Source: Escherichia coli (GTDB taxonomy: Bacteria > Pseudomonadota > Gammaproteobacteria > Enterobacterales > Enterobacteriaceae). Taken from it: 64,000 bases of DNA. Positions 6,320 through 30,885 of this stretch are shown here, one piece after another; within the stretch, counting starts at the first letter, position 1; the number at the start of each line of letters is the position of its first letter. The stretch is taken from assembly GCF_044324785.1 (NCBI RefSeq), contig NZ_CP172127.1, one strand, 5' to 3'. Position numbers and translations under genes: made by a program. The notes beneath the pieces are model-generated. The model saw only the letters and a program-made list of their open reading frames with translations. It was not told where the DNA came from and did no database searches.

Positions 6320-6324
6320 GATGT

Positions 6325-9131: not shown

Positions 9132-9304
9132 GAATACCTCGCCGTGATGAATACACGGCAAGGCTACTGAGTCGCGCCCTGCGATTCGCTAAGGTGCTGT
9201 TGTGTCAGTGATAAGCCATCCGGGACTGATGGCGGAGGATGCGCATCGTCGGGAAACTGATGCCGACATGTGACTCCTCTAATCACTATTCAGGACTCCT
9301 GACA

Positions 9305-10159
9305 ATGGCAAAAAAAGTCTCAAAATTCTTTCGTATCGGCGTTGAGGGTGACACCTGTGACGGGCGTGTCATCAGTGCGCAGGATATTCAGGAAATGGCC
9401 GAAACCTTTGACCCGCGTGTCTATGGTTGCCGCATTAACCTGGAACATCTGCGCGGCATCCTGCCTGACGGCATTTTTAAACGTTATGGCGATGTGGCCG
9501 AACTGAAGGCCGAAAAGATTGACGATGATTCGGCGCTGAAAGGCAAATGGGCGCTGTTTGCGAAAATCACCCCGACCGATGACCTTATCGCGATGAACAA
9601 GGCCGCGCAGAAGGTCTACACCTCAATGGAAATTCAGCCGAACTTTGCCAACACCGGCAAATGTTATCTGGTGGGGCTGGCCGTCACCGATGACCCGGCA
9701 AGCCTCGGCACGGAATACCTGGAATTCTGCCGCACGGCAAAACACAACCCTCTGAACCGCTTCAAATTAAGCCCTGAAAACCTGATTTCAGTGGCAACGC
9801 CTGTTGAGCTGGAATTTGAAGACCTGCCTGAAACCGTGTTCACCGCCCTGACCGAAAAGGTGAAGTCCATTTTTGGCCGCAAACAGGCCAGCGATGATGC
9901 CCGTCTGAATGACGTGCATGAAGCGGTGACCGCTGTTGCTGAACATGTGCAGGAAAAACTGAGCGCCACTGAGCAGCGCCTCGCGGAGATGGAAACCGCC
10001 TTTTCCGCACTTAAGCAGGAGGTGACTGACAGGGCGGATGAAACCAGCCAGGCATTCACCCGCCTGAAAAACAGTCTCGACCACACCGAAAGTCTGACCC
10101 AGCAGCGCCGCAGCAAGGCCACCGGCGGTGGCGGTGACGCCCTGATGACGAACTGCTGA
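9305..10159 (+). CDS. O: Capsid scaffold protein gpO
   Basis: Starts MAKKVSKFFRIGVEGDTCDGRVISAQDIQEMAETF, the P2 O N-terminus. Divergent from P, as in P2. Confidence 0.92.
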   Translation: MAKKVSKFFRIGVEGDTCDGRVISAQDIQEMAETFDPRVYGCRINLEHLRGILPDGIFKRYGDVAELKAEKIDDDSALKGKWALFAKITPTDDLIAMNKAAQKVYTSMEIQPNFANTGKCYLVGLAVTDDPASLGTEYLEFCRTAKHNPLNRFKLSPENLISVATPVELEFEDLPETVFTALTEKVKSIFGRKQASDDARLNDVHEAVTAVAEHVQEKLSATEQRLAEMETAFSALKQEVTDRADETSQAFTRLKNSLDHTESLTQQRRSKATGGGGDALMTNC

Positions 10160-10216
10160 CCGGCATCAGTCATCCGGGAAAACCTTCACGATTAACCCTT
10201 AATTTCAGGAAAAACT

Positions 10217-11290
10217 ATGCGCCAGGAAACCCGCTTTAAATTTAATGCCTACCTGTCCCGTGTTGCCGAACTGAACGGCATCGACGCCGGTGATGTGTCG
10301 AAAAAATTCACCGTTGAACCGTCGGTCACCCAGACCCTGATGAACACCATGCAGGAGTCCTCTGACTTTCTGACCCGCATCAACATTGTGCCGGTCAGCG
10401 AAATGAAAGGGGAAAAAATTGGCATCGGTGTCACCGGCTCCATCGCCAGCACCACCGACACCGCCGGTGGCACCGAGCGTCAGCCGAAGGACTTCTCGAA
10501 GCTGGCGTCAAACAAGTACGAATGCGACCAGATTAACTTCGATTTTTATATCCGCTACAAAACGCTTGACCTGTGGGCGCGTTATCAGGATTTCCAGCTC
10601 CGTGTCCGTAACGCCATTATCAAACGCCAGTCCCTTGATTTCATCATGGCCGGTTTTAACGGCGTGAAGCGTGCCGAAACCTCTGACCGCAGCAGCAATC
10701 CGATGTTGCAGGATGTGGCGGTCGGCTGGCTGCAGAAATACCGCAATGAAGCACCGGCGCGCGTGATGAGCAAGGTCACTGACGAGGAAGGTCACACGAC
10801 CTCTGAGGTCATCCGCGTGGGTAAGGGCGGTGATTATGCCAGCCTTGATGCACTGGTGATGGATGCGACCAACAACCTGATCGAACCGTGGTATCAGGAA
10901 GACCCTGACCTTGTGGTGATAGTGGGACGTCAGTTACTGGCGGACAAGTATTTCCCCATCGTTAACAAGGAGCAGGACAACAGCGAAATGCTGGCCGCTG
11001 ACGTCATCATCAGCCAGAAACGCATCGGCAACCTGCCAGCGGTACGCGTCCCGTACTTCCCGGCGGATGCGATGCTCATCACGAAGCTGGAAAACCTGTC
11101 CATCTACTACATGGATGACAGCCATCGCCGCGTGATTGAGGAAAACCCGAAACTCGACCGCGTGGAGAACTACGAGTCAATGAACATTGATTACGTGGTG
11201 GAGGACTACGCCGCCGGTTGTCTGGTGGAAAAAATTAAGGTCGGTGATTTCTCCACACCGGCTAAAGCGACCGCAGAGCCGGGAGCGTAA
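10217..11290 (+). CDS. N: Major capsid protein gpN
   Basis: 357 aa, MRQETRFKFNAYLSRVAELNG..., in the P2 N position. Confidence 0.93.
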   Translation: MRQETRFKFNAYLSRVAELNGIDAGDVSKKFTVEPSVTQTLMNTMQESSDFLTRINIVPVSEMKGEKIGIGVTGSIASTTDTAGGTERQPKDFSKLASNKYECDQINFDFYIRYKTLDLWARYQDFQLRVRNAIIKRQSLDFIMAGFNGVKRAETSDRSSNPMLQDVAVGWLQKYRNEAPARVMSKVTDEEGHTTSEVIRVGKGGDYASLDALVMDATNNLIEPWYQEDPDLVVIVGRQLLADKYFPIVNKEQDNSEMLAADVIISQKRIGNLPAVRVPYFPADAMLITKLENLSIYYMDDSHRRVIEENPKLDRVENYESMNIDYVVEDYAAGCLVEKIKVGDFSTPAKATAEPGA

Positions 11291-11293
11291 CCG

Positions 11294-12037
11294 ATGACGA
11301 GTCCCGCACAGCGCCACATGATGCGGGTCTCGGCAGCGATGACCGCGCAGCGGGAAGCCGCCCCGCTGCGACATGCAACTGTCTATGAGCAGATGCTGGT
11401 CAAGCTGGCCGCAGACCAGCGCACACTGAAAGCGATTTATTCAAAAGAGCTGAAGGCCGCGAAAAAACGCGAACTGCTGCCGTTCTGGTTGCCGTGGGTG
11501 AACGGCGTGCTGGAGCAGGGCAAAGGTGCACAGGATGACATTCTGATGACGGTCATGCTGTGGCGTCTGGATACCGGCGATATTGCCGGTGCGCTGGAGA
11601 TTGCCCGTTATGCCCTGAAGTACGGTCTGACCATGCCGGGTAAACACCGCCGCACCCCGCCGTACATGTTCACCGAGGAGGTGGCGCTTGCGGCCATGCG
11701 CGCTCACGCTGCCGGTGAGTCTGTGGATACCCGCCTGCTGACGGACACCCTTGAACTGACCGCCACGGCTGACATGCCTGATGAAGTGCGCGCAAAGCTG
11801 CACAAAATCACCGGTCTGTTTCTGCGTGACGCTGGTGATGCCGCAGGGGCGCTGGCGCACCTGCAACGTGCGACACAGCTCGACTGTCAGGCAGGCGTCA
11901 AAAAAGAGATTGAACGACTGGAGCGGGAACTGAAACCGAAGCCGGAGCCACAGCCAAAAGCGGCCACCCGCGCCCCGCGTAAGACCCGGAGTGCGACACC
12001 GGCAAAACGTGGACGCCCGAAAAAGAAAGCCAGTTAA
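11294..12037 (+). CDS. M: Terminase small subunit gpM
   Basis: 247 aa with a basic C-terminal tail, in the P2 M position. Confidence 0.9.
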   Translation: MTSPAQRHMMRVSAAMTAQREAAPLRHATVYEQMLVKLAADQRTLKAIYSKELKAAKKRELLPFWLPWVNGVLEQGKGAQDDILMTVMLWRLDTGDIAGALEIARYALKYGLTMPGKHRRTPPYMFTEEVALAAMRAHAAGESVDTRLLTDTLELTATADMPDEVRAKLHKITGLFLRDAGDAAGALAHLQRATQLDCQAGVKKEIERLERELKPKPEPQPKAATRAPRKTRSATPAKRGRPKKKAS

Positions 12038-12136
12038 CAACCGAATGCGCCCCGCGCCAGGGCGGCACGCCGGTCAGTGAGGGTGAATCACCTGACACTG
12101 CACCGGCGTCCACCGCCCGACTTTTCAGAGGTAGTC

Positions 12137-12646
12137 ATGATGACGCTGATTATTCCGCGAAAGGAGGCTCCCGTGTCCGGTGAGGGTACGGTGGTCATCC
12201 CGCAACCGGCAGGCGACGAGCCGGTGATTAAAAACACGTTCTTTTTTCCCGATATCGACCCGAAGCGCGTCCGGGAACGTATGCGCCTTGAGCAGACCGT
12301 CGCCCCCGCCCGTCTGCGAGAGGCCATCAAGTCAGGCATGGCTGAAACGAATGCGGAGCTGTACGAGTACCGCGAACAGAAAATTGCTGCCGGTTTTACG
12401 CGTCTGGTGGACGTCCCGGCGGACGACATCGACGGTGAAAGCATCAAAGTTTTTTATTACGAGCGCGCCGTGTGTGCGATGGCGACCGCGTCGCTTTATG
12501 AACGTTATCGCGGTGTGGATGCCAGTGCGAAAGGCGACAAGAAGGCCGACAGCATTGACAGCACCATTGATGAACTGTGGCGGGATATGCGCTGGGCGGT
12601 GGCGCGTATCCAGGACAAGCCACGCTGCATCGTGAGTCAAATCTGA
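12137..12646 (+). CDS. L: Head completion protein gpL
   Basis: Trimmed to MMTLIIPRKEAPVSGEGTVV, the P2 L N-terminus. Confidence 0.9.
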   Translation: MMTLIIPRKEAPVSGEGTVVIPQPAGDEPVIKNTFFFPDIDPKRVRERMRLEQTVAPARLREAIKSGMAETNAELYEYREQKIAAGFTRLVDVPADDIDGESIKVFYYERAVCAMATASLYERYRGVDASAKGDKKADSIDSTIDELWRDMRWAVARIQDKPRCIVSQI

Positions 12647-12849
12647 TGAAGACCTTTGCGCTACAGGGCGACACGCTCGACGCCATTTGTGTCCGGTATT
12701 ACGGGCGCACTGAGGGCGTGGTCGAGGCCGTGCTCGCCGCAAATCCGGGACTGGCTGAACTGGGTGCGGTGCTGCCGCACGGCACCGCCGTCGAACTGCC
12801 CGACGTTCAGACCGCGCCCGTGGCTGAAACTGTCAATCTGTGGGAGTAA
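12646..12849 (+). CDS. X: Tail protein gpX (LysM-like)
   Basis: MKTFALQGDTLDAICVRYYGRTEGVVE..., 67 aa as in P2 X. Confidence 0.88.
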   Translation: MKTFALQGDTLDAICVRYYGRTEGVVEAVLAANPGLAELGAVLPHGTAVELPDVQTAPVAETVNLWE

Positions 12850-12852
12850 CAC

Positions 12853-13134
12853 ATGACAGCAGAAGAAAAAAGCGTCCTGTCGCTTTTCATGATTGGGGTG
12901 CTGATTGTTGTCGGCAAGGTGCTTGCCGGTGGTGAACCCATTACCCCGCGTCTGTTTATCGGGCGCATGTTGCTCGGTGGTTTTGTCTCGATGGTTGCCG
13001 GTGTTGTTCTGGTGCAGTTCCCTGACCTGTCACTGCCTGCGGTGTGCGGCATCGGCTCCATGCTGGGTATCGCCGGTTATCAGGTGATTGAGATTGCCAT
13101 TCAGCGCCGCTTTAAGGGCAGGGGGAAACAGTAA
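12853..13134 (+). CDS. Y: Holin gpY
   Basis: 93 aa with multiple TM segments, directly upstream of the endolysin. Confidence 0.88.
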   Translation: MTAEEKSVLSLFMIGVLIVVGKVLAGGEPITPRLFIGRMLLGGFVSMVAGVVLVQFPDLSLPAVCGIGSMLGIAGYQVIEIAIQRRFKGRGKQ

Positions 13135-13631
13135 TGCAGGTAATTAACACGCATCAGAATATCGCCGCCTTTCTCGACATGCTGGCCGTGTCCGAAGGGA
13201 CGGCGAATCATCCGCTGACGAAAAACCGGGGCTATGACGTGATAGTCACCGGACTGGACGGAAAGCCGGAAATTTTCACCGACTACAGTGACCACCCGTT
13301 CGCACATGGCCGACCGGCGAAGGTGTTTAACCGTCGCGGTGAAAAATCAACGGCCTCCGGTCGCTATCAGCAGCTTTACCTGTTCTGGCCGCATTACCGC
13401 AAACAGCTTGCCCTGCCGGATTTCAGTCCGTTGTCACAGGACAGACTCGCCATTCAGTTGATCCGCGAACGCGGTGCACTGGATGACATCCGGGCGGGAC
13501 GTATTGAGCGCGCCATTTCACGCTGTCGCAATATCTGGGCGTCCCTGCCGGGTGCCGGTTACGGTCAGCGTGAGCATTCACTGGAAAAACTGGTCACCGT
13601 CTGGCGTACCGCTGGCGGCGTACCGGCTTAA
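13134..13631 (+). CDS. K: Endolysin gpK
   Basis: 165 aa, MQVINTHQNIAAFLDMLAVSEGT (phage lysozyme/transglycosylase-like), in the P2 K position. Confidence 0.9.
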   Translation: MQVINTHQNIAAFLDMLAVSEGTANHPLTKNRGYDVIVTGLDGKPEIFTDYSDHPFAHGRPAKVFNRRGEKSTASGRYQQLYLFWPHYRKQLALPDFSPLSQDRLAIQLIRERGALDDIRAGRIERAISRCRNIWASLPGAGYGQREHSLEKLVTVWRTAGGVPA

Positions 13632-13645
13632 ACGGAGTAAACACC

Positions 13646-14071
13646 ATGAAGAAATTATCCCTTTCACTGATGCTGAACGTGTCGCTGGCGCTGATGCTGG
13701 CACTGTCCCTGATTTACCCGCAGAGCGTGGCCGTCAGTTTTGTCGCTGCCTGGGCGATTCTGGCGACGGTTATCTGTGTGGTTGCCGGTGGTGTCGGCGT
13801 TTATGCCACTGAGTATGTGCTGGAACGCTACGGGCGGGAGCTGCCGCCGGAGTCGCTGGCCGTGAAGATTGTCATGTCGCTGTTTTTGCAGCCAGTGCCG
13901 TGGTGCAGACGGGCGGCGGCTCTGGTGGTGATGGTGGCGACATTTATCTCGCTGGTCGCTGCCGGGTGGATTTTTACCGCGCTGATTTATCTCGTGGCGT
14001 CGGTGTTCTTCCGGCTGATACGTACGGCCTGCCGTCAACGTCTTGAGGGGCGGGAACCATGTCAAAGCTGA
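13646..14071 (+). CDS. lysA: Lysis timing membrane protein LysA
   Basis: 141-aa polytopic membrane protein following K, as in P2. Confidence 0.85.
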   Translation: MKKLSLSLMLNVSLALMLALSLIYPQSVAVSFVAAWAILATVICVVAGGVGVYATEYVLERYGRELPPESLAVKIVMSLFLQPVPWCRRAAALVVMVATFISLVAAGWIFTALIYLVASVFFRLIRTACRQRLEGREPCQS

Positions 14072-14484
14072 TGATTGTGATGGTTGTGTTGTTATCGCTG
14101 GCGGTGGCGGGGCTGTTTCTGGCGAAGCATGAAAACGCCAGCCTGCGCGCCTCGCTGGACAGGGTGAACAACGTCGCCAGTGAACAGCAGACGACCATCA
14201 CCATGCTGAAAAATCAGCTTCATGTTGCCCTCACCAGGGCAGACAAAAACGAGCTGGCGCAGGTGGCACTGCGTCAGGAACTGGAGAACGCCGCGAAGCG
14301 TGAAGCACAGCGCGAGAAAACCATCACGAGGTTACTTAATGAAAACGAAGATTTTCGCCGCTGGTACGGCGCTGACCTGCCTGATGCTGTGCGCCGGTTG
14401 CACCAGCGCCCCGCCTGCACCGACGCCAGTGATTGTCCACAACGCCTGCCCGAAAGTGAGCCTTTGCCCGATGCCGGGCAGTGA
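14059..14484 (+). CDS. lysB: i-spanin LysB (Rz-like)
   Basis: 141 aa with an N-terminal TM segment and a coiled-coil region, in the P2 lysB position. Confidence 0.85.
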   Translation: MSKLMIVMVVLLSLAVAGLFLAKHENASLRASLDRVNNVASEQQTTITMLKNQLHVALTRADKNELAQVALRQELENAAKREAQREKTITRLLNENEDFRRWYGADLPDAVRRLHQRPACTDASDCPQRLPESEPLPDAGQ

Positions 14485-14629
14485 CCCGCAGACGAACGGT
14501 GATTTAAGTGCCGATATCCGGCAGCTTGAGAACGCGCTGGCACGCTGTGCCAGCCAGGTAAAAATGATTAAACACTGTCAGGACGAAAACGATGCTCAAA
14601 CCCGACAGCCTGCGCAGGGCGCTGACTGA
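14339..14629 (+). CDS. lysC: o-spanin LysC (Rz1-like lipoprotein), overlapping the 3' part of lysB in another frame and extending past its stop
   Basis: MKTKIFAAGTALTCLMLCAGC contains a lipobox (LCAGC). The gene overlaps the lysB 3' part in the +1 frame. Confidence 0.8.
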   Translation: MKTKIFAAGTALTCLMLCAGCTSAPPAPTPVIVHNACPKVSLCPMPGSDPQTNGDLSADIRQLENALARCASQVKMIKHCQDENDAQTRQPAQGAD

Positions 14630-15059
14630 TGCCGTCACGGTGCTGAAAACCAGTCCCGAGATGTTGCGGATATTCGTGGATAACGGGAGTATTGCCTCCA
14701 CGCTGGCGACGTCGTTGTCATTCGAAAAGCGTTACACGCTCAATGTGATTGTGACCGACTTTACCGGTGATTTTGACCTGCTCATCGTGCCGGTGCTGGC
14801 GTGGCTGCGGGAAAATCAGCCCGACATCATGACCACCGACGAAGGTCAGAAAAAAGGTTTCACGTTTTATGCAGACATCAACAATGACAGCAGCTTTGAT
14901 ATCAGCATCAGCCTGATGCTGACCGAGCGCACGCTGGTCAGTGAGGTGGACGGCGCGCTGCATGTGAAGAATATCCCGGAACCCACGCCGCCGGAGCCGG
15001 CCACCCGCCCGATGGAGCTTTATATCAATGGCGAACTGGTGAGCAAGTGGGATGAATGA
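14592..15059 (+). CDS. R: Tail completion protein gpR
   Basis: 155 aa, in the P2 R position and with matching sequence. Confidence 0.88.
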   Translation: MLKPDSLRRALTDAVTVLKTSPEMLRIFVDNGSIASTLATSLSFEKRYTLNVIVTDFTGDFDLLIVPVLAWLRENQPDIMTTDEGQKKGFTFYADINNDSSFDISISLMLTERTLVSEVDGALHVKNIPEPTPPEPATRPMELYINGELVSKWDE

Positions 15060-15504
15060 GTTTAAGCGTTTTGAAGACCGGCTGACCGGACTGACTGAGT
15101 CGCTGTCACCGTCAGGGCGTCGGCGACTGAGCGCCGAACTGGCGAAACGTCTGCGGCAGAGTCAGCAGCGTCGGGTGATGGCACAGAAAGCCCCGGATGG
15201 CACACCCTATGCGCCACGCCAGCAGCAGAGCGCCAGAAAAAAGACCGGTCGTGTTAAGCGAAAAATGTTTGCGAAACTTATCACCAGTCGTTTTTTGCAT
15301 ATCCGCGCCAGCCCGGAACAGGCATCAATGGAATTTTACGGCGGGAAGTCGCCGAAAATCGCCAGTGTGCATCAGTTCGGTCTGTCGGAAGAAACCCGGA
15401 AAGACGGTAAGAAAATTGATTATCCGGCGCGTCCTCTGCTCGGCTTTACCGGTGAGGATGTGCAGATGATTGAAGAGATTATCCTGGCTCACCTTGAGCG
15501 TTAG
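15052..15504 (+). CDS. S: Tail completion protein gpS
   Basis: 150 aa, in the P2 S position and with matching sequence. Confidence 0.88.
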   Translation: MNEFKRFEDRLTGLTESLSPSGRRRLSAELAKRLRQSQQRRVMAQKAPDGTPYAPRQQQSARKKTGRVKRKMFAKLITSRFLHIRASPEQASMEFYGGKSPKIASVHQFGLSEETRKDGKKIDYPARPLLGFTGEDVQMIEEIILAHLER

Positions 15505-15534
15505 TTTTATCCAGGCAGAGGCTGATGCGCAATT

Positions 15535-15569
15535 AAACATTGAGCGGCCATGCTGGTCGCTCAATGTTT
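15535..15569. terminator. Bidirectional hairpin between convergent S and the cargo membrane gene
   Basis: 12-bp perfect stem AAACATTGAGCG / CGCTCAATGTTT with an 11-nt loop, between the S stop (15504) and the minus-strand stop (15576). Confidence 0.55.
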
Positions 15570-16131
15570 AGAGGTTTATGAGTGATTTTTATTTGATGCT
15601 TTGTATTCTAAAACCTTCTTATTGGCGTAAAAGAATTTTGTATATGACAGGAATATAACCAGACCTGAAGTGAAATAGACGAGGGATAGTATTAATAATG
15701 CTTTTTTGTGACTGTTATTATCTTTAATCTCCTGGCTTAACCATTCGGAGTCCTCCTCGTTTAGCTGTAAGAGCTTATTGCAGGCGATCTCAGGAAGTGT
15801 GTCTTTTATAAATACGTTTTGCAGTCTCTTGCAATCGGCAAGGCTATAAGTTTTATTAAATTCAACTGCTTTATTTTTGAAGGATAAAAGAACTTTGTCA
15901 CTATAAACATAGTACATCATGTTTTTATATGGTATGCCTATGGCATCCCTTACTATAACGGATTGTACGTTGTGTATGTAACATGCGAGGAGAATGTAAA
16001 AAATACTGGCCAGAATTACAATTATTGTTTTAATTATGTGTAGACTGGCCCCCTGAATCTCCAGACAACCAATATCACTTAAATAAGTGATAGTCTTAAT
16101 ACTAGTTTTTAGACTAGTCATTGGAGAGCAG

Positions 16132-16497
16132 ATGATTGATGTCTTAGGACCGGAGAAACGCAGACGGCGTACTACACAGGAAAAGATCGCTATTGTTCAG
16201 CAGAGTTTTGAACCGGGAATGACGGTCTCCCTTGTTGCCCGGCAACACGGTGTGGCAGCCAGCCAGTTATTTCTCTGGCGCAAGCAATACCAGGAGGGAA
16301 GTCTTACTGCTGTGGCCGCAGGAGAGCAGGTCGTTCCTGCCTCTGAACTTGCTGCTGCCATGAAGCAGATTAAAGAACTCCAGCGCCTGCTCGGCAAAAA
16401 AACGATGGAAAATGAACTCCTTAAAGAAGCCGTTGAATACGGGCGTGCAAAAAAGTGGATAGCGCACGCGCCCTTATTGCCCGGGGATGGGGAGTAA
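16132..16497 (+). CDS. insC: IS2 transposase OrfA (InsC)
   Basis: [29 protein letters not shown]... The A_AAA_AAG frameshift heptamer lies at 16449-16455 in the zero frame. Confidence 0.9.
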
Positions 16498-17360
16498 GCT
16501 TAGTCAGCCGTTGTCTCCGGGTGTCGCGTGCGCAGTTGCACGTAATTCTCAGACGAACCGATGACTGGAAAGATGGTCGCCGCAGCCGTCACTCAGATGA
16601 TACGGATGTGCTTCTCCGTATACACCATGTTATCGGAGAGCTGCCCACGTATGGTTATCGTCGGGTATGGGCGCTGCTTCGCAGACAGGCCGAACTTGAT
16701 GGTATGCCTGCGATCAATGCCAAACGTGTTTACCGGATCATGCGCCAGAATGCGCTGTTGCTTGAGCGAAAAACCGCTGTACCGCCATCGAAACGGGCAC
16801 ATACTGGCAAAGTGGCCGTGAAAGAAAGCAATCAACGATGGTGCTCTGACGGGTTCGAGTTCCGCTGTGATAACGGAGAAAAACTGCGAGTCACGTTCGC
16901 GCTGGACTGCTGTGACCGTGAGGCACTGCACTGGGCAGTCACTACGGGCGGCTTCGACAGTGAAACAGTACAGGACGTAATGCTGGGAGCGGTGGAACGC
17001 CGCTTCGGCAACGAGCTTCCGGCGTCTCCAGTAGAGTGGCTGACGGATAATGGTTCATGCTACCGGGCTAATGAAACACGGCAGTTTGCCCGGATGTTGG
17101 GGCTTGAACCGAAGAACACGGCGGTGCGGAGTCCGGAGAGTAACGGCATAGCAGAGAGCTTCGTGAAAACGATAAAGCGTGACTACATCAGTATCATGCC
17201 TAAACCAGACGGGTTAACGGCAGCAAAGAACCTTGCAGAGGCGTTCGAGCATTATAACGAATGGCATCCGCATAGTGCACTGGGTTATCGCTCGCCACGG
17301 GAATATCTGCGGCAGCAGGCCAGTAATGGGTTAAGTGATAACAGGTGTCTGGAAATATAG
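16455..17360 (+). CDS. insD: IS2 transposase OrfB (InsD, DDE integrase domain), expressed as an OrfAB fusion by -1 frameshift
   Basis: 301-aa ORF in the -1 frame relative to insC, with a typical IS3-family rve domain sequence. Confidence 0.9.
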
Positions 17361-17780
17361 GGGCAAATCCAATGTGTGGTGGTTTTGTTATGTCACCCCA
17401 GATGCGAGTAAGAAAAAAATACGATGTTTTTAGTTTTCCATCAATCAGTCCCTGCTGTATCATTCTCACATTTTCAATGCCTGATACATTGATTCCGTTA
17501 ATTATTTTAAATAGTTGAATGTCGCGCCACTCGCGGTCAAGTCTTTTTAATTTTTTGTCTGAATATCCAAAATTGAAATAATGTGCAATAAGCCTCATAA
17601 GGTTACTTTTACCAAAGCTAAAAAATGCTAATACTGCAAAGCTACAAAGGAAAAAAACGATTAGCCCCCACACATTAGTCACATTATAGCTGACCATTAC
17701 GCTCTCCTTGAATGTTGTCTGGTAGTTCTACAAATGAATCCAGATAGCATAACTTTTATATATTGTGCAATCTCACATGC

Positions 17781-18416
17781 ATGAACACTCTCGCAAATAT
17801 TCAGGAACTCGCGCGTGCACTGCGCAACATGATCCGCACCGGTATTATCGTCGAAACCGACCTTAACGCCGGTCGCTGCCGTGTGCAGACCGGCGGCATG
17901 TGCACCGACTGGCTTCAGTGGCTGACCCATCGCGCCGGACGTTCGCGCACATGGTGGGCACCTTCCGTGGGGGAACAGGTGCTGATTCTGGCCGTGGGCG
18001 GTGAACTCGACACGGCGTTCGTTCTGCCGGGGATTTATTCCGGCGATAACCCCGCGCCGTCTGCGTCGGCGGATGCCCTGCATATCCGTTTCCCTGACGG
18101 GGCGGTGATTGAGTATGAACCTGAAACCAGTGCGCTCACGGTAAGCGGAGTTAAAACGGCCAGCGTGATGGCTTCTGATTCTGTTACTGCCACGGTGCCG
18201 GTGGTTATGGTGAAAGCATCAACCCGCATCACCCTGGACACACCGGAAGTGGTCTGCACCAACAAACTGACTACCGGCACGCTGGAAGTGCAGAAGGGCG
18301 GGACGATGCGCGGCAACATTGAACACACCGGCGGTGAACTCTCATCAAACGGTAAGGTACTGCATACCCATAAACACCCCGGCGACAGCGGCGGCACAAC
18401 CGGGAGTCCTTTATGA
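17781..18416 (+). CDS. V: Baseplate spike gpV
   Basis: Trimmed to MNTLANIQELARALRNMIRTGIIVETDL, the P2 V N-terminus. Confidence 0.92.
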   Translation: MNTLANIQELARALRNMIRTGIIVETDLNAGRCRVQTGGMCTDWLQWLTHRAGRSRTWWAPSVGEQVLILAVGGELDTAFVLPGIYSGDNPAPSASADALHIRFPDGAVIEYEPETSALTVSGVKTASVMASDSVTATVPVVMVKASTRITLDTPEVVCTNKLTTGTLEVQKGGTMRGNIEHTGGELSSNGKVLHTHKHPGDSGGTTGSPL

Positions 18417-18760
18417 CAGCGCGTTATCTCGGAATGAATCGCAGTGATGGCCTGACTGTCACTGACCTTGAGCATATCAGCCAGAGTATCGGCGATATCC
18501 TGCGCACACCGGTCGGCTCACGGGTGATGCGTCGTGATTACGGCTCGTTGCTGGCATCAATGATTGACCAGCCGCAGACCCCGGCGCTTGAGTTGCAGAT
18601 TAAGGTCGCCTGTTACATGGCGGTGCTGAAATGGGAACCCCGCGTCACCCTGTCATCCGTCACCACTGAGCGCAGTTTTGACGGGCGAATGACGGTCACG
18701 TTAACCGGCCAGCACAACGACACCGGCCAGCCACTTTCATTAACCATCCCTGTGAGTTGA
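18413..18760 (+). CDS. W: Baseplate wedge protein gpW (gp25-like)
   Basis: 115 aa, in the P2 W position and with matching sequence. Confidence 0.9.
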   Translation: MTARYLGMNRSDGLTVTDLEHISQSIGDILRTPVGSRVMRRDYGSLLASMIDQPQTPALELQIKVACYMAVLKWEPRVTLSSVTTERSFDGRMTVTLTGQHNDTGQPLSLTIPVS

Positions 18761-18764
18761 AACC

Positions 18765-19673
18765 ATGCCGATTATCGACCTGAACCAGCTACCCGCACCG
18801 GATGTGGTCGAGGAGCTGGACTTTGAAAGCATTCTCGCTGAACGCAAGGCGACACTGATTTCCCTTTACCCGGAAGATCAGCAGGAGGCGGTCGCCCGTA
18901 CCCTGACACTGGAATCTGAGCCTCTCGTCAAACTGCTGGAAGAAAATGCTTATCGTGAGCTTATCTGGCGTCAGCGTGTGAATGAGGCCGCACGGGCGGT
19001 GATGCTGGCCTGTGCCGCCGGTAATGACCTTGATGTGATTGGTGCCAATTACAACACCACGCGCCTGACTATCACCCCGGCAGATGATTCGACCATTCCG
19101 CCGACACCGGCAGTGATGGAATCTGACACCGATTATCGGCTGCGTATTCAGCAGGCGTTTGAAGGTTTAAGCGTCGCCGGGTCGGTGGGTGCCTATCAGT
19201 ATCATGGCCGCAGTGCCGACGGGCGTGTCGCGGATATCTCTGTCACCAGTCCGTCTCCGGCCTGCGTCACTATCTCTGTGCTGTCACGTGAAAATAACGG
19301 CGTCGCATCCGAAGACCTGCTGGCTGTGGTGCGTAACGCCCTTAATGGCGAGGACGTCAGGCCGGTGGCCGACCGCGTGACCGTGCAGTCTGCCGCCATC
19401 GTTGAATACCAGATAAACGCCACGCTTTACCTTTACCCTGGTCCCGAAAGCGAACCCATCCGCGCTGCCGCTGTGAAAAAGCTGGAAGCGTATATCACGG
19501 CACAGCACAGGCTGGGGCGCGACATCCGTCTGTCTGCCATTTATGCCGCTTTGCATGTGGAAGGTGTGCAGCGTGTCGAACTGGCTGCACCACTGGCCGA
19601 CATCGTGCTCAACAGTACGCAGGCGTCTTTCTGTACCGAATACCGCGTCGTGACCGGAGGCTCGGATGAGTGA
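18765..19673 (+). CDS. J: Baseplate protein gpJ
   Basis: 302 aa, in the P2 J position and with matching sequence. Confidence 0.9.
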   Translation: MPIIDLNQLPAPDVVEELDFESILAERKATLISLYPEDQQEAVARTLTLESEPLVKLLEENAYRELIWRQRVNEAARAVMLACAAGNDLDVIGANYNTTRLTITPADDSTIPPTPAVMESDTDYRLRIQQAFEGLSVAGSVGAYQYHGRSADGRVADISVTSPSPACVTISVLSRENNGVASEDLLAVVRNALNGEDVRPVADRVTVQSAAIVEYQINATLYLYPGPESEPIRAAAVKKLEAYITAQHRLGRDIRLSAIYAALHVEGVQRVELAAPLADIVLNSTQASFCTEYRVVTGGSDE

Positions 19674-20196
19674 TTCGCGACTGCTGCCGACCGGCTCATC
19701 ACCGCTTGAGGTCGCCGCCGCAAAAGCCTGTGCGGAAATTGAAAAAACGCCGGTCAGTATTCGTGAGCTGTGGAACCCGGACACCTGTCCGGCAAATCTG
19801 CTGCCGTGGCTGGCGTGGGCGTTTTCGGTCGACAGGTGGGATGAAAAGTGGCCGGAAGCGACAAAACGCGCCGTTATCCGCGATGCGTATTTCATCCACT
19901 GTCATAAAGGCACAATAGGTGCAATCCGGCGTGTGGTGGAGCCGCTCGGCTATCTCATCAACGTGACGGAGTGGTGGGAAAACAGTGACCCGCCCGGCAC
20001 CTTCCGGCTTGATATTGGTGTACTGGAAAGCGGCATCACAGAGGCAATGTATCAGGAAATGGAACGGCTGATTGCTGATGCCAAACCTGCAAGCCGCCAC
20101 CTTATTGGCCTGAACATTACCCGGGACATTCCCGGCTACCTGTTCGCCGGTGGTGTGGCTTACGACGGCGATGTAATTACGGTTTACCCCGGATAA
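19666..20196 (+). CDS. I: Baseplate/tail protein gpI
   Basis: 176 aa, in the P2 I position and with matching sequence. Confidence 0.9.
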   Translation: MSDSRLLPTGSSPLEVAAAKACAEIEKTPVSIRELWNPDTCPANLLPWLAWAFSVDRWDEKWPEATKRAVIRDAYFIHCHKGTIGAIRRVVEPLGYLINVTEWWENSDPPGTFRLDIGVLESGITEAMYQEMERLIADAKPASRHLIGLNITRDIPGYLFAGGVAYDGDVITVYPG

Positions 20197-20206
20197 GTGA
20201 GGAATA

Positions 20207-22525
20207 ATGAGCACAAAATTCAGAACCGTTATCACCACTGCCGGTGCAGCAAAGCTGGCAGCGGCAACCGCACCGGGAGGGCGGAAGGTCAACATTACCA
20301 CGATGGCCGTCGGGGATGGCGGTGGTAAATTGCCTGTCCCGGATGCCGGACAGACCGGGCTTATCCACGAAGTCTGGCGACATGCGCTGAACAAAATCAG
20401 CCAGGACAAACGAAACAGTAATTATATTATCGCAGAGCTGGTTATTCCGCCGGAGGTGGGCGGTTTCTGGATGCGTGAGCTTGGCCTGTACGATGATGCG
20501 GGAACGTTAATTGCTGTGGCGAACATGGCCGAAAGTTATAAGCCAGCTCTCGCCGAAGGCTCAGGGCGTTCGCAGACCTGTCGCATGGTCATCATCGTCA
20601 GCAGTGTGGCCTCAGTGGAGCTGACCATTGACACCACAACAGTGATGGCGACGCAGGATTACGTTGATGACAAAATTGCAGAGCACGAACAGTCACGACG
20701 TCACCCGGACGCCTCGCTGACCGCCAAAGGTTTTACTCAGTTAAGCAGTGCGACCAACAGCACGTCTGAAACACTGGCCGCAACGCCGAAAGCGGTAAAG
20801 GCCGCGTATGACCTTGCTAACGGGAAATATACTGCGCAGGATGCCACCACAGCGCGAAAAGGTCTTGTCCAGCTCAGTAGTGCCACCAACAGCACGTCTG
20901 AAACGCTCGCTGCAACACCAAAAGCGGTAAAAGCAGCATATGACCTGGCTAACGGGAAATATACCGCACAGGACGCCACCACCGCGCGAAAAGGCCTTGT
21001 CCAGCTAAGTAGCGTCACCAACAGCGATTCTGAAACGCTTGCGGCAACGCCAAAGGCGGTTAAGACAGCGTATGACCTTGCTAACGGGAAATACACTGCA
21101 CAGGATGCCACCACAGCGCGAAAAGGGCTTGTCCAGCTCAGTAGCGCCACCAACAGTGATTCTGAAACCCTCGCGGCAACGCCAAAAGCAGTGAAGTCTG
21201 CCTATGACAATGCTGAAAAACGTCTTCAGAAAGATCAGAACGGTGCGGATATTCCGGGAAAGGATACCTTCACGAAAAATATCGGTGCCTGTCGTGCTTA
21301 TAGCGGCGCTTTGAGCACTGAAGCCGGAAACTGGACAACCGCTCAGTTTATTGAATGGCTGGATTCCCGTGGTGCATTTAATCATCCGTACTGGATGTGC
21401 AAAGGCTCCTGGTCATATGCAAATAACAAAATCATTACGGATACCGGATGTGGTGATATCCACCTGGCTGGTTGTGTCGTCGAGGTCATGGGAACTAAAT
21501 CTGCAATCACTATCCGAGTGACCACGCCGACAACATCAAGCGGTGGCGGTACAACCAGCGCGCAATTCACTTACATTAATCATGGGGACGGCTACTCCCC
21601 CGGCTGGCGTCGTGACTGGAATCGTCAGGGCGACGCAATGACCGGAACGATTAATCAGGATGGCGGAAGCCAGAATGCCTATATGTCTACGGCCTTATGT
21701 TCAGGCACCAGAGGCGGCAAAAAATATCTCAGAAAGTTTCGTGGTGGAGAAGGAGACACTATCTGGCATGAAACAGTACAGGGCGGGGTAGTTCGCTGGG
21801 CGACTGGTAATACTGATGCTCAGGAAGAATTATCACTCAGCTCCGCTTATGGTCTCCGTTCAAGAGGTGAGATTACATCAAGCAGTGCTAATGGTCTGCG
21901 CATTGCTTATGGCAATTATGGATTCTTTATCAGGAATGATGGCAGCAGCACTTATTTTATGTTGACTAAATCAGGTGACAGATTAGGCACTTATAATAAT
22001 TTAAGACCACTGATTATAAATGATGCCACGGGTGCTGTATCAATGGGGCATGGCCTGAGTGTTACTGGTGATATTGCCTCAAGTACCAAAGTACGTGCCG
22101 GTAGCGGGAAAAAATTCACGGTCAGCAGCAGTAATACATCCACGAAGGAAGCCGCATTCAATTTGTGGGGAAACTCAAGTCGTCCGGTGGTGGCTGAATT
22201 AGGTGATGATGCAGGCTGGCATTTTTACAGTCAGAGAAATACAGATAACAGCATCACTTTTGCTGTTAACGGGCAGGTATCACCATCTAACTATAGTAAT
22301 TTTGATTCACGCTATGTCCGGGATATCCGGCTTGGTGGTGCTGCCACATACAAACCTGCGAACAATGGCATGACATGGACACATCAGGCACCGTCCGGGT
22401 GTGTATATTCCGGCATTATTGTTCAGGATACCGGCTCAAACTCTGCCGATAACATTGGTGGCGTATATTACAGACCGGTGCAGAAATACATTAACGGGAC
22501 ATGGTATAACGTGGCACAGGTATAA
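20207..22525 (+). CDS. H: Tail fibre protein gpH (772 aa) with an expanded internal repeat and a partly divergent distal part
   Basis: The N-terminal ~180 aa and the C-terminal end (KYINGTWYNVAQV) match remembered P2 H. The middle differs. Confidence 0.9.
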   Translation: MSTKFRTVITTAGAAKLAAATAPGGRKVNITTMAVGDGGGKLPVPDAGQTGLIHEVWRHALNKISQDKRNSNYIIAELVIPPEVGGFWMRELGLYDDAGTLIAVANMAESYKPALAEGSGRSQTCRMVIIVSSVASVELTIDTTTVMATQDYVDDKIAEHEQSRRHPDASLTAKGFTQLSSATNSTSETLAATPKAVKAAYDLANGKYTAQDATTARKGLVQLSSATNSTSETLAATPKAVKAAYDLANGKYTAQDATTARKGLVQLSSVTNSDSETLAATPKAVKTAYDLANGKYTAQDATTARKGLVQLSSATNSDSETLAATPKAVKSAYDNAEKRLQKDQNGADIPGKDTFTKNIGACRAYSGALSTEAGNWTTAQFIEWLDSRGAFNHPYWMCKGSWSYANNKIITDTGCGDIHLAGCVVEVMGTKSAITIRVTTPTTSSGGGTTSAQFTYINHGDGYSPGWRRDWNRQGDAMTGTINQDGGSQNAYMSTALCSGTRGGKKYLRKFRGGEGDTIWHETVQGGVVRWATGNTDAQEELSLSSAYGLRSRGEITSSSANGLRIAYGNYGFFIRNDGSSTYFMLTKSGDRLGTYNNLRPLIINDATGAVSMGHGLSVTGDIASSTKVRAGSGKKFTVSSSNTSTKEAAFNLWGNSSRPVVAELGDDAGWHFYSQRNTDNSITFAVNGQVSPSNYSNFDSRYVRDIRLGGAATYKPANNGMTWTHQAPSGCVYSGIIVQDTGSNSADNIGGVYYRPVQKYINGTWYNVAQV
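20738..21210 (+). repeat. In-frame tandem coding repeat (about 132 bp / 44 aa, 3 full copies plus 1 partial) inside H
   Basis: QLSSATNSTSETLAATPKAVKAAYDLANGKYTAQDATTARKGLV recurs with a few substitutions. The nucleotide copies are diverged at synonymous sites. Confidence 0.85.
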
Positions 22526-23056: not shown

Positions 23057-23381
23057 GTGATATGATCTCTTGTGTTAGTTAACATAGCTATAGTACAGAG
23101 TAAGGCCTAATCTGACAGTCCGCTCTGTGCTAGGAGCGGACATTATCAACATCATGCTATGTTAATGTATAAAGTGAAGATAAATTGATATAATAAGGCC
23201 ACCATGAATATTTCAGAACCTTGTCAAAAGGTTTGCACATACTCTAGTCTTGCAATGTGTAGTTGATAGTTCCACTGAGGAGGTTCTTCGACATTCTTTA
23301 TAAAAATGTACATTTTCATCAATAATAAGAGGTAAAAGGGCTTTAATGGTTTTTTGTGGATGTTATTTCTACTCATAAATT

Positions 23382-23410
23382 TTGAGATAAGTATTGAGTT
23401 GAGATAAAAT
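23382..23410 (+). promoter_or_regulatory. Putative sigma70 promoter of the Z/fun-locus cargo gene
   Basis: -35 TTGAGA (23382-23387), a 17-bp spacer, then -10 TAAAAT (23405-23410), about 36 nt upstream of the ATG. An AGGA RBS lies 7 nt before the ATG. Confidence 0.55.
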
Positions 23411-23445
23411 TAAACTCGTTAAATTCACCTTTAAAAGGATAAAGC

Positions 23446-23973
23446 ATGGACTGGAAAGATCTTGCATCAACCGCTGTGTATACAGGTATGACTGATGAAA
23501 ATGAAAGCATATGGGAACGTGTTGATGGGGTTGACGTTGCCTTCATAGGTGCCTTTCTTACTGCGCACTTGAGCCTTGAAAAGTATATTACTGATTATCT
23601 TGGATTAAGATATCCTTCGTTAGCTTGGGGTGATGCAAAACTCACATTTTCACAAAAAATAGCTTTAATACAACATGAGCCTGCAACCCCCCCTTATGAT
23701 GAAATATATTTAAGAATAAAAGACTTTAACAGCATAAGAAATAAAATCAGTCATCAATTGAATTATCAGATTACGGATAAAGAAAAAAGTAAGTTTGTGG
23801 ACTTCTACATGAAGATTACTAAAGCCAGTAAAACTAAACCAAATATTGATATTGATAACATGGCAGATTTGTTGGATTTTTTCGTATCGATGACAAAATC
23901 CTATTTTGCTAGTGCTATTTCTTGTTATCACTATAATAAAAAGGTTGCAGGTAAAAGTAATAAAATTGATTAA
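23446..23973 (+). CDS. Hypothetical 175-aa protein with a HEPN-like RNxxxH motif (candidate RNase/abortive-infection effector)
   Basis: SIRNKISHQLNY (R98-H103) fits the Rx4-6H HEPN signature with the typical Asn after Arg. It is AT-rich single-gene cargo between G and FI. Confidence 0.6.
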   Translation: MDWKDLASTAVYTGMTDENESIWERVDGVDVAFIGAFLTAHLSLEKYITDYLGLRYPSLAWGDAKLTFSQKIALIQHEPATPPYDEIYLRIKDFNSIRNKISHQLNYQITDKEKSKFVDFYMKITKASKTKPNIDIDNMADLLDFFVSMTKSYFASAISCYHYNKKVAGKSNKID

Positions 23974-24148
23974 TAAAACTGGACTTAGGGATAATTAATA
24001 TATAGACGTTCTATCATTTTTAGAGTGTGCGGCAGCTCCATACATTCATGCGGATGTCAGCACCTCGCTCAAAGCAGACAGTCAGATTTGATAGCGTTTG
24101 GACTATGTAAATAGTCAGTTGGAAAATGAGTGAGTACAAATCAGGACA

Positions 24149-24175
24149 GGCGGGCGAATTGCCCGCCTTTTCTTT
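24149..24175 (+). terminator. Intrinsic terminator upstream of the FI late promoter region
   Basis: GGCGGGC-gaatt-GCCCGCC followed by TTTTCTTT. Confidence 0.75.
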
Positions 24176-24271
24176 ATCTGTTGTTTCATCCACTGACCAG
24201 CCAGGTCAAATAGCGTCTCATGCTCTGCCCAACAGAAAATAGTTGCACCCATTAACCACGGAGTTAAACGG

Positions 24272-25462: not shown

Positions 25463-25474
25463 GGAGCCTGACCG

Positions 25475-25993: not shown

Positions 25994-26049
25994 TTTTCAT
26001 CCGGTCAGCCAGGCTGACCGGTTAACCCTGATTCAGAAGTGAGAAAACC

Positions 26050-28917: not shown

Positions 28918-28931
28918 GGAGGTGACGAAAA

Positions 28932-30874: not shown

Positions 30875-30885
30875 TTACAAACAGG

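What the first reader, a model, noticed from the sequence alone, without database searches (positions are those of the whole stretch)
15576..17697. S/V (orf30) moron locus: 3-TM membrane protein gene knocked out by a recent IS2 insertion
Seen in sequence:
- An AT-rich minus-strand gene with a strong AGGAG RBS occupies the S-V gap.
- It is interrupted by a complete 1331-bp IS2 (16041-17371) flanked by a perfect 5-bp duplication ATGTG.
- Deleting IS2 and one duplicate restores a 786-nt ORF (261 aa).
- The restored protein has hydrophobic segments near residues 9-28, 110-130 and 225-245, and a soluble middle region.

Inference:
- The intact duplication and the undamaged flanks suggest a recent insertion.
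- Small membrane proteins at phage moron loci are often superinfection-exclusion or abortive-infection factors.
- Inactivation may reflect a fitness cost or simple IS traffic.
- I do not recognise the protein.
Basis: partly seen in the sequence, partly recalled or inferred. Interest (0 to 1): 0.5.

Follow-up and report, generated by a model that had tools for sequence, protein, structure and literature searches.

The report
IS2-disrupted phage P2 orf30 gene
A P2-type prophage carries its well-known but still function-less accessory gene orf30 (a three-pass inner-membrane protein) split by one recent, strain-specific IS2 insertion, which is an ordinary event in a gene that other strains keep intact.

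Summary
A 1331-bp IS2 lies at 16041-17371, flanked by the 5-bp duplication ATGTG. It splits an AT-rich minus-strand gene between tail genes S and V. Removing it restores a 786-nt, 261-aa ORF with three transmembrane segments.

It is phage P2 Orf30 itself (99.2% aa identity, same locus), annotated "nonessential", function unknown (PHROG 2407).

The insertion is recent and private:
- The restored gene and 2.2 kb of flanks are 100% identical to an uninterrupted allele in E. coli EC77.
- The IS copy is 100% identical to other copies.
- None of 5,426 complete E. coli genomes, GTDB representatives or JGI metagenomes has this junction.

orf30 sits in about 26% of E. coli P2-like prophages, and 461 of 463 genomes carry it uninterrupted. 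It is under purifying selection (dN/dS 0.25-0.53). Neutral IS traffic is therefore more likely than selected loss.

New context:
- Orf30 belongs to a small Enterobacterales family of 44 clusters.
- Members at 17-31% identity nearly always sit divergently beside gene V of P2-like prophages.
- The family has a conserved cytoplasmic motif and a conserved periplasmic cysteine pair.
- No fold or defence-model match was found.

An exclusion or defence role is plausible but untested. Overall the finding is ordinary.

The parts
15052..15504 (+). P2 gene S (tail completion), last gene of the late O operon; left border of the orf30 cassette
   Evidence: 98% aa identity to P2 gpS over its full length. 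In orf30-less prophages, homology stops at its stop codon.
15533..15571 (.). Bidirectional terminator hairpin between the convergent genes S and orf30
   Evidence: 18-bp stem. Minimum free energy is -26.8 kcal/mol on the + strand and -21.3 on the - strand, with z about -7 against shuffles. It corresponds to the P2 record's 'putative rho-independent terminator for O operon' at 9397-9433.
15576..16040 (-). orf30 3' fragment: codons 108-261 plus stop (TM2, periplasmic domain, TM3, C-tail). Includes the left copy of the target duplication.
   Evidence: An in-frame ATG inside the IS at 16121 makes a 181-aa hybrid ORF, 15576-16121.
16036..16040 (.). Left copy of the 5-bp target-site duplication ATGTG
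16041..17371 (+). IS2 (IS3 family), complete at 1331 bp. orfA is at 16132-16497 and orfB at 16455-17360, on the + strand, opposite to orf30 and in the same direction as S and V.
   Evidence: It is 100% identical to full-length copies annotated 'IS3 family transposase' in other genomes. It is the only copy in the window.
17372..17376 (.). Right copy of the 5-bp target-site duplication ATGTG
17377..17697 (-). orf30 5' fragment: codons 1-107 (TM1 and the conserved cytoplasmic domain). It reads on into the IS as a 165-aa truncated ORF, 17200-17697.
17704..17709 (-). Shine-Dalgarno AAGGAG, 6 nt upstream of the orf30 ATG
17712..17739 (+). Ogr activator-binding site of the late promoter PV, placed by homology to P2 10239-10266. 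It is untouched by the insertion.
   Evidence: P2 annotation with a coordinate offset of +7473 taken from the blastn map.
17781..18416 (+). P2 gene V (baseplate spike); right border of the orf30 cassette, transcribed divergently from orf30
   Evidence: 96% aa identity to P2 gpV over its full length.

Best explanation
The locus is the orf30 cassette of a phage-P2-type prophage, inactivated by one recent, strain-specific IS2 transposition.

Shown:
- The restored gene is P2 orf30.
- The cassette fills the whole gap between the S stop codon and the V start codon. It consists of a bidirectional terminator, the gene, its ribosome-binding site, and its own AT-rich version of the PV promoter region.
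- IS2 entered after codon 107 and duplicated ATGTG. This separates TM1 and the cytoplasmic domain from TM2, the periplasmic domain and TM3, so no full-length protein can be made.
- The terminator of the O operon, the PV activator site and all 26 P2 morphogenesis, lysis and replication genes in the window are intact. The hit is confined to a nonessential gene.

Inferred, on the insertion: it is neutral IS traffic into an AT-rich dispensable target, not a selected loss.

Inferred, on what Orf30 does when intact: it is an inner-membrane lysogenic-conversion protein.
- Topology is N-terminus out. An ~80-residue conserved cytoplasmic helical domain carries the motif D-x-Q-L-F-(K/R)-x-x-N-G-I-N-V...D-A. 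A ~90-residue periplasmic beta-sheet/helix domain is held by a conserved disulfide (C177-C194). The C-terminus is in.
- It is probably made from the prophage while the overlapping late promoter PV is silent.
- It most likely protects the lysogen at the envelope, by blocking entry of competing phages or phage-tail-like agents or by aborting their infection. This would parallel P2's other AT-rich, opposite-strand accessory genes old, tin and fun(Z).

The confidence figure applies to the identification and the insertion history. The exclusion function alone deserves about 0.4.
For: Identity:
- tblastn gives 99.2% identity over 261 aa to P2 Orf30 at the same position.
- The PHROG 2407 match is full length, E = 4e-148.
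- The window is colinear with P2 at 96-98% nt identity, and all P2 late genes are full length.

Recency and privacy:
- 100.0% nt identity of the restored ORF and of 2165 nt of flanks to intact EC77.
- No record among 20,395 covers at least 80% of the interrupted 3.5-kb query.
- The junction 33-mer is absent from GTDB representatives and JGI metagenomes.
- The IS copy is 100% identical to other copies.

The gene is functional elsewhere:
- It occurs in 463 of 5426 genomes and is uninterrupted in 461.
- Eight alleles are all 786 nt without indels. dN/dS is 0.25-0.53, against about 0.1-0.2 for V and S.

Accessory nature:
- The P2 record says 'nonessential'.
- In a spread sample of 8 E. coli P2-like prophages, 3 had orf30 and 5 had an empty 66-bp S-V spacer.
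- 480 orf30 places compare with 1857 V places, about 26%.

Family:
- 44 representatives at 50% identity among 1.84 billion proteins.
- Members at 17-31% identity lie beside V in P2-like prophages of uncultured sources, Sodalis and Serratia: 7 of the 9 distant members whose contexts were read.
- Neighbouring V is 60-84% identical while Orf30 is 21-31%.
- One locus has tandem paralogues.
- A decayed Serratia rubidaea remnant retains the gene.

Topology:
- Three hydrophobic segments, with loop 1 net +7.
- Exactly two Cys in loop 2 in all 29 members.
- AlphaFold2 model with pLDDT 84.

Architecture parallel: old, tin and fun(Z) are annotated as lysogenic-conversion and exclusion genes on the opposite strand in the P2 record.
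Against: For the function:
- No hit to 5027 PADLOC defence models for Orf30 or for any of 29 family members.
- No Pfam hit for Orf30 itself.
- The P2 hotspot and defence papers I could read do not list this locus or gene.
- The classical exclusion phenotypes of P2 lysogens are all assigned to old, tin and fun.
- No sigma-70-like promoter was found upstream of orf30 by the consensus scan, so expression in the lysogen is inferred, not shown.
- Strict co-location with V over deep divergence could instead mean a role in the phage's own cycle.

For 'neutral' insertion: a single event cannot distinguish drift from selection in this particular host.
Confidence: 0.9

Rival explanations
1. Orf30 serves the P2 life cycle itself rather than lysogen defence. 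It would be a membrane accessory factor functionally coupled to the spike/baseplate protein V or to DNA exit or entry, dispensable in the laboratory. Its loss here would subtly impair the prophage.
For: - The family sits immediately and divergently next to V in P2-like prophages whose Orf30 proteins are only 17-31% identical: 7 of the 9 distant members whose contexts were read.
- It shares the 83-127-bp regulatory gap with PV.
- The orf30 cassette brings its own version of the PV region.
Against: - About 74% of E. coli P2-like prophages with 95-97% identical V genes lack it entirely and have a 66-bp spacer instead.
- The P2 record lists it as nonessential.
- It is on the opposite strand from both late operons.
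- The Ogr site is too close to its ATG to serve a divergent late promoter. A start 55 bp from the site centre would fall inside the ORF (coordinates).
- One member lies outside any P2 context, beside an integrase remnant.
- A decayed prophage keeps it while S has decayed.
Confidence: 0.15
2. The IS2 insertion was selected. Orf30 is costly or toxic in this particular host background, for example when H-NS silencing is weak, so a knock-out swept.
For: - Membrane proteins from AT-rich horizontally acquired DNA are often toxic when derepressed (general knowledge).
- A second accessory gene of the same prophage (Methyltransf_35, 3454-4445) appears split into two ORFs. This hints at erosion of cargo genes.
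Against: - 461 of 463 E. coli genomes with orf30 keep it uninterrupted, and the alleles show purifying selection without indels.
- No other genome shares the event.
- Zero substitutions have accumulated since the insertion, so there has been no time for a visible sweep.
- IS2 is abundant, with a median of 4 places per genome, so random hits are expected.
Confidence: 0.1
3. Orf30 benefits the host in a way unrelated to phages, for example immunity to a pore-forming bacteriocin or another envelope-stress or colonisation function.
For: - Three-pass inner-membrane topology with a disulfide-bonded periplasmic domain.
- One family member gave a very weak match to Colicin-K immunity (E = 0.11).
- The gene is retained in decayed prophage remnants.
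Against: - The colicin-immunity match is a single sub-threshold hit.
- No toxin gene accompanies it in any of the contexts read.
- At 261 aa it is larger than colicin immunity proteins, as I recall their size.
- Its distribution is tied to P2-like phages rather than to plasmids or bacteriocin loci.
Confidence: 0.1

Closest known systems
Bacteriophage P2 Orf30 (NP_046770, P2p15; PHROG 2407)
   Same: 99.2% amino-acid identity over all 261 residues. Same position between S and V, same orientation, same terminator and the same PV activator site.
   Different: Here it is split after codon 107 by IS2. No function has been assigned to the reference gene either; it is listed only as 'nonessential'.
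IS2 (IS3 family insertion sequence)
   Same: 1331 bp, imperfect terminal inverted repeats, two overlapping transposase frames and a 5-bp target duplication. It is 100% identical to full-length copies in other E. coli genomes.
   Different: Nothing unusual. Only the insertion site is new.
P2 lysogenic-conversion/exclusion genes old, tin and fun(Z)
   Same: They are AT-rich, nonessential, on the strand opposite the late operons, and located at gaps between operons. They are present in some P2-like phages and absent or replaced in others (for the hotspot literature).
   Different: - There is no sequence or fold relationship.
- Those proteins have demonstrated targets (lambda, T-even phages, T5), whereas Orf30 has none.
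- Their loci are highly diverse hotspots. In E. coli the S-V site looks binary, with orf30 or an empty 66-bp spacer in the 8 prophages sampled.
- The same protein family occupies the S-V site across genera.
HK97 gp15-type prophage membrane superinfection-exclusion morons (also T4 Imm, P22 SieA)
   Same: From my own knowledge: these are small inner-membrane proteins encoded by morons within or beside tail genes, expressed from the prophage, that block DNA entry of incoming phages. The gene position and membrane location here are analogous.
   Different: There is no detectable homology, and Foldseek against predicted viral structures found nothing. Orf30 is larger, with 3 TM segments and two soluble domains. 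No exclusion phenotype is known. This is a resemblance only, not membership.
Pfam DUF6216 (PF19723)
   Same: Ten of 29 Orf30-family members touch this model. The Sodalis member matches over its full length above the gathering score (28.9 against 27.3 bits).
   Different: P2 Orf30 and the window protein do not match it at E <= 1. The family has no known function either.

Membership tests
IS2 (IS3 family) | Element of about 1.3 kb bounded by imperfect terminal inverted repeats | tested here: met
   1331 bp. The ends are TAGACTGGCCCC... and ...GGGGCAAATCCA, and they align as imperfect inverted repeats.
IS2 (IS3 family) | Two consecutive, partly overlapping transposase reading frames (orfA/orfB) | tested here: met
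   ORFs at 16087/16132-16497 and 16455-17360 on the + strand overlap in different frames. The region is annotated 'IS3 family transposase' in identical copies.
IS2 (IS3 family) | Short direct target duplication (5 bp for IS2) | tested here: met
   ATGTG at 16036-16040 and 17372-17376. Removing the IS and one copy restores a sequence 100% identical to an intact allele.
P2 Orf30 family (PHROG 2407) | Full-length sequence similarity to P2 Orf30 | tested here: met
   99.2% identity over 261 aa. phrog_2407 matches at E = 4e-148 over positions 1-261 of 261.
P2 Orf30 family (PHROG 2407) | Location between tail-completion gene S and spike gene V, divergent from V | tested here: met
   The same placement holds in 7 of the 9 distant members whose contexts were read.
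Pfam DUF6216 | Score above the Pfam gathering threshold (27.3 bits) | tested here: not met
   No hit for the restored protein at E <= 1. Only a distant relative (P0029) passes.
Known anti-phage defence systems (PADLOC-DB v2) | Match to a defence-protein model | tested here: not met
   No families for the protein. Only three isolated, mutually unrelated weak hits among 29 members.
Superinfection-exclusion or abortive-infection membrane proteins (functional class) | Expression from the prophage reduces plating or DNA entry of other phages | not testable with these tools
   This needs expression of the restored gene and plaque, adsorption and DNA-entry assays.
Superinfection-exclusion or abortive-infection membrane proteins (functional class) | Inner-membrane location | tested here: met
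   Three predicted TM helices, positive-inside loop 1, and a conserved Cys pair in loop 2. This is prediction only.
Phage moron (accessory cassette) | Self-contained unit between conserved genes, with deviant base composition and presence/absence among close relatives | tested here: met
   34% G+C against 52% for the window, with its own terminator. It is absent, with a 66-bp spacer, in 5 of 8 sampled E. coli P2-like prophages. Its own promoter was not identified.
Holin/antiholin | Small TM protein encoded in the lysis cassette and co-transcribed with the endolysin | tested here: not met
   The protein is 261 aa, on the opposite strand and outside the Y-K-lysA-lysB-lysC cassette at 12853-14629.

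The most novel reading that the evidence does not exclude
The Orf30 family (PHROG 2407, bordering on DUF6216) would be a P2-lineage-specific, H-NS-silenced inner-membrane immunity protein. Its variable periplasmic domain would recognise an incoming phage or tailocin component, and its conserved cytoplasmic D-x-QLF-x-x-NGINV domain would execute exclusion or abortive infection. That would make it a fourth, overlooked defence locus of phage P2 beside old, tin and fun(Z), lost here through IS2. A September 2026 preprint on H-NS silencing of antiviral genes contains the words DUF6216, P2-like and transmembrane, but its text could not be read. It is a lead only.
Probability: 0.3. Interest if true: 0.55.

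Novelty: already known. Interest (0 to 1): 0.27.

Why it matters
As it stands, the finding matters little. It is a routine IS2 hit in a dispensable prophage gene, useful mainly as a strain marker and as a natural knock-out allele.

The wider value is that P2 orf30 has had no assigned function since the P2 genome was annotated, although P2 is a model phage. This work shows four things:
- The gene is maintained under purifying selection.
- It defines a small family fixed at the S-V junction of P2-like prophages in several Enterobacterales genera.
- It has a definable topology with conserved motifs.
- It matches no known defence, lysis or structural family.

That makes it a well-defined single-gene candidate for a phage-exclusion test. 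The pair orf30::IS2 (this strain) and intact orf30 (EC77, 100% identical otherwise) is a ready-made isogenic comparison.

Tried and rejected
- Pfam, NCBIfam and PADLOC scans of the restored protein gave nothing meaningful. The NCBIfam hit (E = 0.018, 15 bits against a cutoff of 120) is a TM-helix artefact.
- A profile search of PDB sequences found only TM-helix noise.
- Foldseek against BFVD and PDB gave no hit below E = 0.08 and no TM-score above 0.21.
- The afdb50 library was unavailable.
- The search for related loci on GTDB representatives failed twice for lack of conserved columns and once found no relatives.
- Two small ORFs upstream of a distant homologue (L004) briefly suggested a toxin-peptide/immunity pair. 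Translation showed they are fragments of a decayed tyrosine-integrase C-terminus, so the idea was rejected.
- The subfamily represented by P0026 is absent from complete E. coli genomes and from isolated phages.
- The consensus promoter scan found no orf30 promoter.
- I considered a shared Ogr-dependent divergent promoter like PP/PO and rejected it. A start 55 bp from the activator-site centre would lie inside the ORF (coordinates).
- Literature searches for orf30, P2p15, its accession numbers and PHROG 2407 found no functional study.
- The Christie & Calendar and Casjens & Grose reviews and the H-NS preprint are not held.
- The host could not be identified. The best flank identity to any complete E. 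coli genome is 98.0-98.7%. It may be a Shigella or a divergent Escherichia lineage.
Full report
**1. The observation**

The window region 15300-18000 was read directly, and the ORFs were listed.
- A 1331-bp element lies at 16041-17371. It starts TAGACTGGCCCC and ends GGGGCAAATCCA.
- It has imperfect terminal inverted repeats and two overlapping + strand reading frames, 16132-16497 and 16455-17360.
- ATGTG lies on both sides, at 16036-16040 and 17372-17376.
- The element is 100% identical over its whole length to copies annotated 'IS3 family transposase' in other E. coli genomes. It is the only copy in the window.
- From my knowledge of its length, ends and 5-bp duplication, it is IS2.

Joining 15576-16040 to 17377-17697 gives a 786-nt minus-strand ORF of 261 codons. 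It has 34% G+C against 52% for the window, and AAGGAG lies 6 nt before the ATG. Kyte-Doolittle windows above 1.6 occur only at about 9-28, 109-130 and 221-241. The insertion lies exactly after codon 107. Every statement in the finding is confirmed.

**2. What the gene is**

tblastn against phage genomes shows the restored protein is 99.2% identical over its whole length to Orf30 of bacteriophage P2 (AF063097/NC_001895, 9439-10224).
- The P2 record annotates Orf30 as 'nonessential', with no function.
- It matches PHROG 2407 ('unknown function') end to end.
- It matches no Pfam, NCBIfam or PADLOC family.

A blastn map places the window on P2:

| Window coordinates | Content |
|---|---|
| 1-2201 | Gene A |
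| 2202-6136 | A-Q cargo hotspot |
| 6137-16040 | cos and genes Q to S |
| 16041-17371 | IS2 |
| 17372-20931 | orf30 5' part and V to H |
| 24064-31002 | FI to ogr and attP |
| beyond 31002 | Host genes yegQ, baeSR and others |

All 26 P2 genes tested are full length at 94-100% identity. The exceptions are the C-terminus of H and gene G. old, tin and fun have no counterpart. This is therefore a P2-type prophage whose only visible lesion in the core region is orf30::IS2.

**3. Anatomy of the cassette**
- A strong hairpin at 15533-15571 folds on both strands (-26.8 and -21.3 kcal/mol, z about -7). It coincides with the annotated terminator of the P2 O operon, so it serves the convergent genes S and orf30.
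- The Ogr activator site of PV maps to 17712-17739, only 15 nt upstream of the orf30 ATG. Any orf30 promoter must therefore overlap the PV core promoter or the start of V.
- The consensus scan found no promoter there.
- A divergent Ogr-dependent start like PP/PO would fall inside the ORF, so late activation from this site is unlikely. This is an inference.
- The IS lies more than 300 bp from PV and more than 460 bp from the terminator, so both late operons should be unaffected.

**4. How old and how common is the insertion?**
- The restored ORF is 100% identical in nucleotides to an intact annotated gene in E. coli EC77, which sits between V and S.
- The 2165 nt of flanks in a 3.5-kb query are also 100.0% identical to EC77.
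- No record among 20,395 (5,426 complete genomes) covers 80% of the interrupted query.
- The junction 33-mer is absent from the GTDB species representatives and from JGI metagenome contigs.

The event is therefore recent and, as far as can be seen, private to this strain. The host flank is at most 98.0-98.7% identical to any complete E. coli genome. The strain itself is not in that collection, and its species (E. coli, Shigella or another Escherichia lineage) remains open.

**5. Is orf30 a real, maintained gene?**
- It occurs in 463 of 5,426 E. coli genomes (480 places), and 461 of them hold it uninterrupted.
- Gene V of this type occurs at 1857 places in 1625 genomes, so about a quarter of such prophages carry orf30.
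- In an evenly spread sample of eight, three had the 786-nt gene. Five had an empty 66-bp S-V spacer whose sequence, including the PV region, is unrelated and GC-rich.
- Within that sample of eight the site is binary rather than a diverse hotspot. The cassette comprises everything between the S stop codon and the V start codon.
- Eight alleles (88-99.5% nt identity) are all 786 nt without indels. dN/dS is 0.25-0.53, against about 0.1-0.2 for V and S.
- The soluble loops are more constrained (0.25-0.39) than TM1 and TM3.

These figures argue that the gene is functional and that its interruption here is chance IS traffic, not a general tendency to lose it.

**6. The family**

A word-indexed search of 5.8 billion proteins found only five clusters, the most distant at 39% identity, from Enterobacter. 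An exhaustive HMMER profile search of 1.84 billion representatives found 44, nearly all 250-270 aa when complete. A second profile search added Serratia members.

In the 29-sequence alignment:
- The most conserved part is the loop between TM1 and TM2, with the motif D-x-Q-L-F-(K/R)-x-x-N-G-I-N-V...D-A and invariant G68 and G87.
- This loop has the lowest column entropy (2.0 bits, against 2.5-2.8 elsewhere).
- Every member has exactly two cysteines in the loop between TM2 and TM3 (C177 at 90%, C194 invariant).
- Loop 1 has a net charge of +7.

Together these give the topology N-out, loop 1 cytoplasmic, loop 2 periplasmic and probably disulfide-bonded, C-terminus in.

The AlphaFold2 model built on this alignment is fairly confident (pLDDT 84, pTM 0.75). 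It shows three long TM helices, a helical cytoplasmic domain, and a four-stranded sheet plus helices in the periplasmic loop.

**7. Genomic context of distant members**

Contexts were read for nine distant members.
- Seven lie immediately and divergently beside gene V in P2-like prophages:
  - P0006 (31% identity) and P0026 (three assemblies).
  - P0032, which has an extra DUF4062 gene between it and S.
  - P0021, which has a second, 26%-identical paralogue in tandem.
  - P0029 from Sodalis and P0050 from Serratia nevei.
  - P0056 from Serratia rubidaea, in a decayed remnant that keeps V, the orf30-like gene and ogr, while S is a 49-aa stub.
- One member lies beside a decayed integrase.
- One member is at a contig end.
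- All are 30-35% G+C in 47-55% G+C surroundings.
- Where V is 60-84% identical to the window's V and W and J are 54-82% identical, Orf30 is only 21-31% identical.

The family is thus an old companion of the P2 lineage. It evolves much faster than its structural neighbours and stays AT-rich.

**8. Comparison with known families**
- Ten of the 29 members touch Pfam DUF6216. Only the Sodalis member passes the threshold, and P2 Orf30 does not match.
- No member matches a PADLOC model convincingly.
- The papers on P2 hotspots that I could read treat the A-Q (old/tin) and Z/fun loci and a few others, but not the S-V gene. Other papers list Orf30 as 'unknown'.
- A September 2026 preprint on H-NS silencing of antiviral genes contains 'DUF6216', 'P2-like' and 'transmembrane'. 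It could not be opened, so it is a lead, not evidence.

**9. Interpretation**

Shown: the locus is P2 orf30, inactivated by a recent, private IS2 insertion that leaves the phage's essential functions intact.

Inferred:
- When intact, Orf30 is an inner-membrane lysogenic-conversion protein.
- Several features resemble P2's proven exclusion genes and, by analogy from my own knowledge, membrane superinfection-exclusion morons such as HK97 gp15:
  - architecture (AT-rich, opposite strand, own terminator, presence/absence polymorphism);
  - fast divergence and occasional tandem duplication;
  - retention in decayed prophages.
- I put about 0.4 on an exclusion or defence role. I put about 0.15 on a role in the phage's own cycle linked to V, about 0.1 on a phage-unrelated host benefit, and the rest on unknown.
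- Selected loss of the gene in this strain is possible but unsupported (about 0.1).

**10. Verdict**

The residual interest lies in the orphan status of Orf30 and in the family-level picture assembled here. That picture makes a simple experimental test worthwhile.

Noticed in passing
window 2352-5908: The P2 A-Q (old/tin) hotspot carries different cargo here. It has a C5 cytosine DNA methyltransferase (2352-3503, +) and a 488-aa HATPase_c_3 protein (4442-5908, -). It also has a Methyltransf_35 (PF20553) gene that appears split into two overlapping ORFs, 3912-4445 matching profile positions 2-158 and 3454-3915 matching 170-307. This may be a second inactivated accessory gene, or a natural split.
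   Followed up: partly
window 23151-24064: The Z/fun slot between G and FI is short (about 0.9 kb against 2.1 kb in P2). It holds only an unannotated 175-aa ORF (23446-23973, +) and no fun homologue.
   Followed up: no
window 20931-22470: Tail-fibre gene H is P2-like only in its first 251 residues and G is only 74% identical, so the receptor-binding module has been exchanged. Short internal repeats lie at 20857-21196.
   Followed up: no
window 46483-47411: Direct repeats of about 330 bp, 84-88% identical, lie in the host chromosome part of the window.
   Followed up: no
L022, L025-L028 positions 2535-2600 (E. coli P2-like prophages without orf30): orf30-less prophages have a 66-bp, GC-rich S-V spacer with no similarity to the P2 PV region and no separate terminator hairpin like the one in P2. 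The orf30 cassette therefore comes with its own AT-rich PV promoter version.
   Followed up: partly
L014 6001-7658: Two tandem Orf30-family paralogues, 26% identical to each other, sit next to V in a decayed P2-like prophage from a Logan assembly.
   Followed up: partly
L031 2486-5021 (Serratia rubidaea): A decayed P2 remnant retains intact V, an intact orf30-like gene and ogr, while S is reduced to 49 aa. This is suggestive of host-level retention.
   Followed up: no
L013 6877-8214: In one P2-like prophage a 445-aa DUF4062 gene is inserted between S and the orf30-like gene. The slot can therefore accumulate further cargo.
   Followed up: no
window 31003-64000: The host flank (yegQ, baeSR... 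dgcE, asmA, udk) is at most 98.0-98.7% identical to any of 5,426 complete E. coli genomes. The source is a lineage not represented there, possibly Shigella or a divergent Escherichia.
   Followed up: partly
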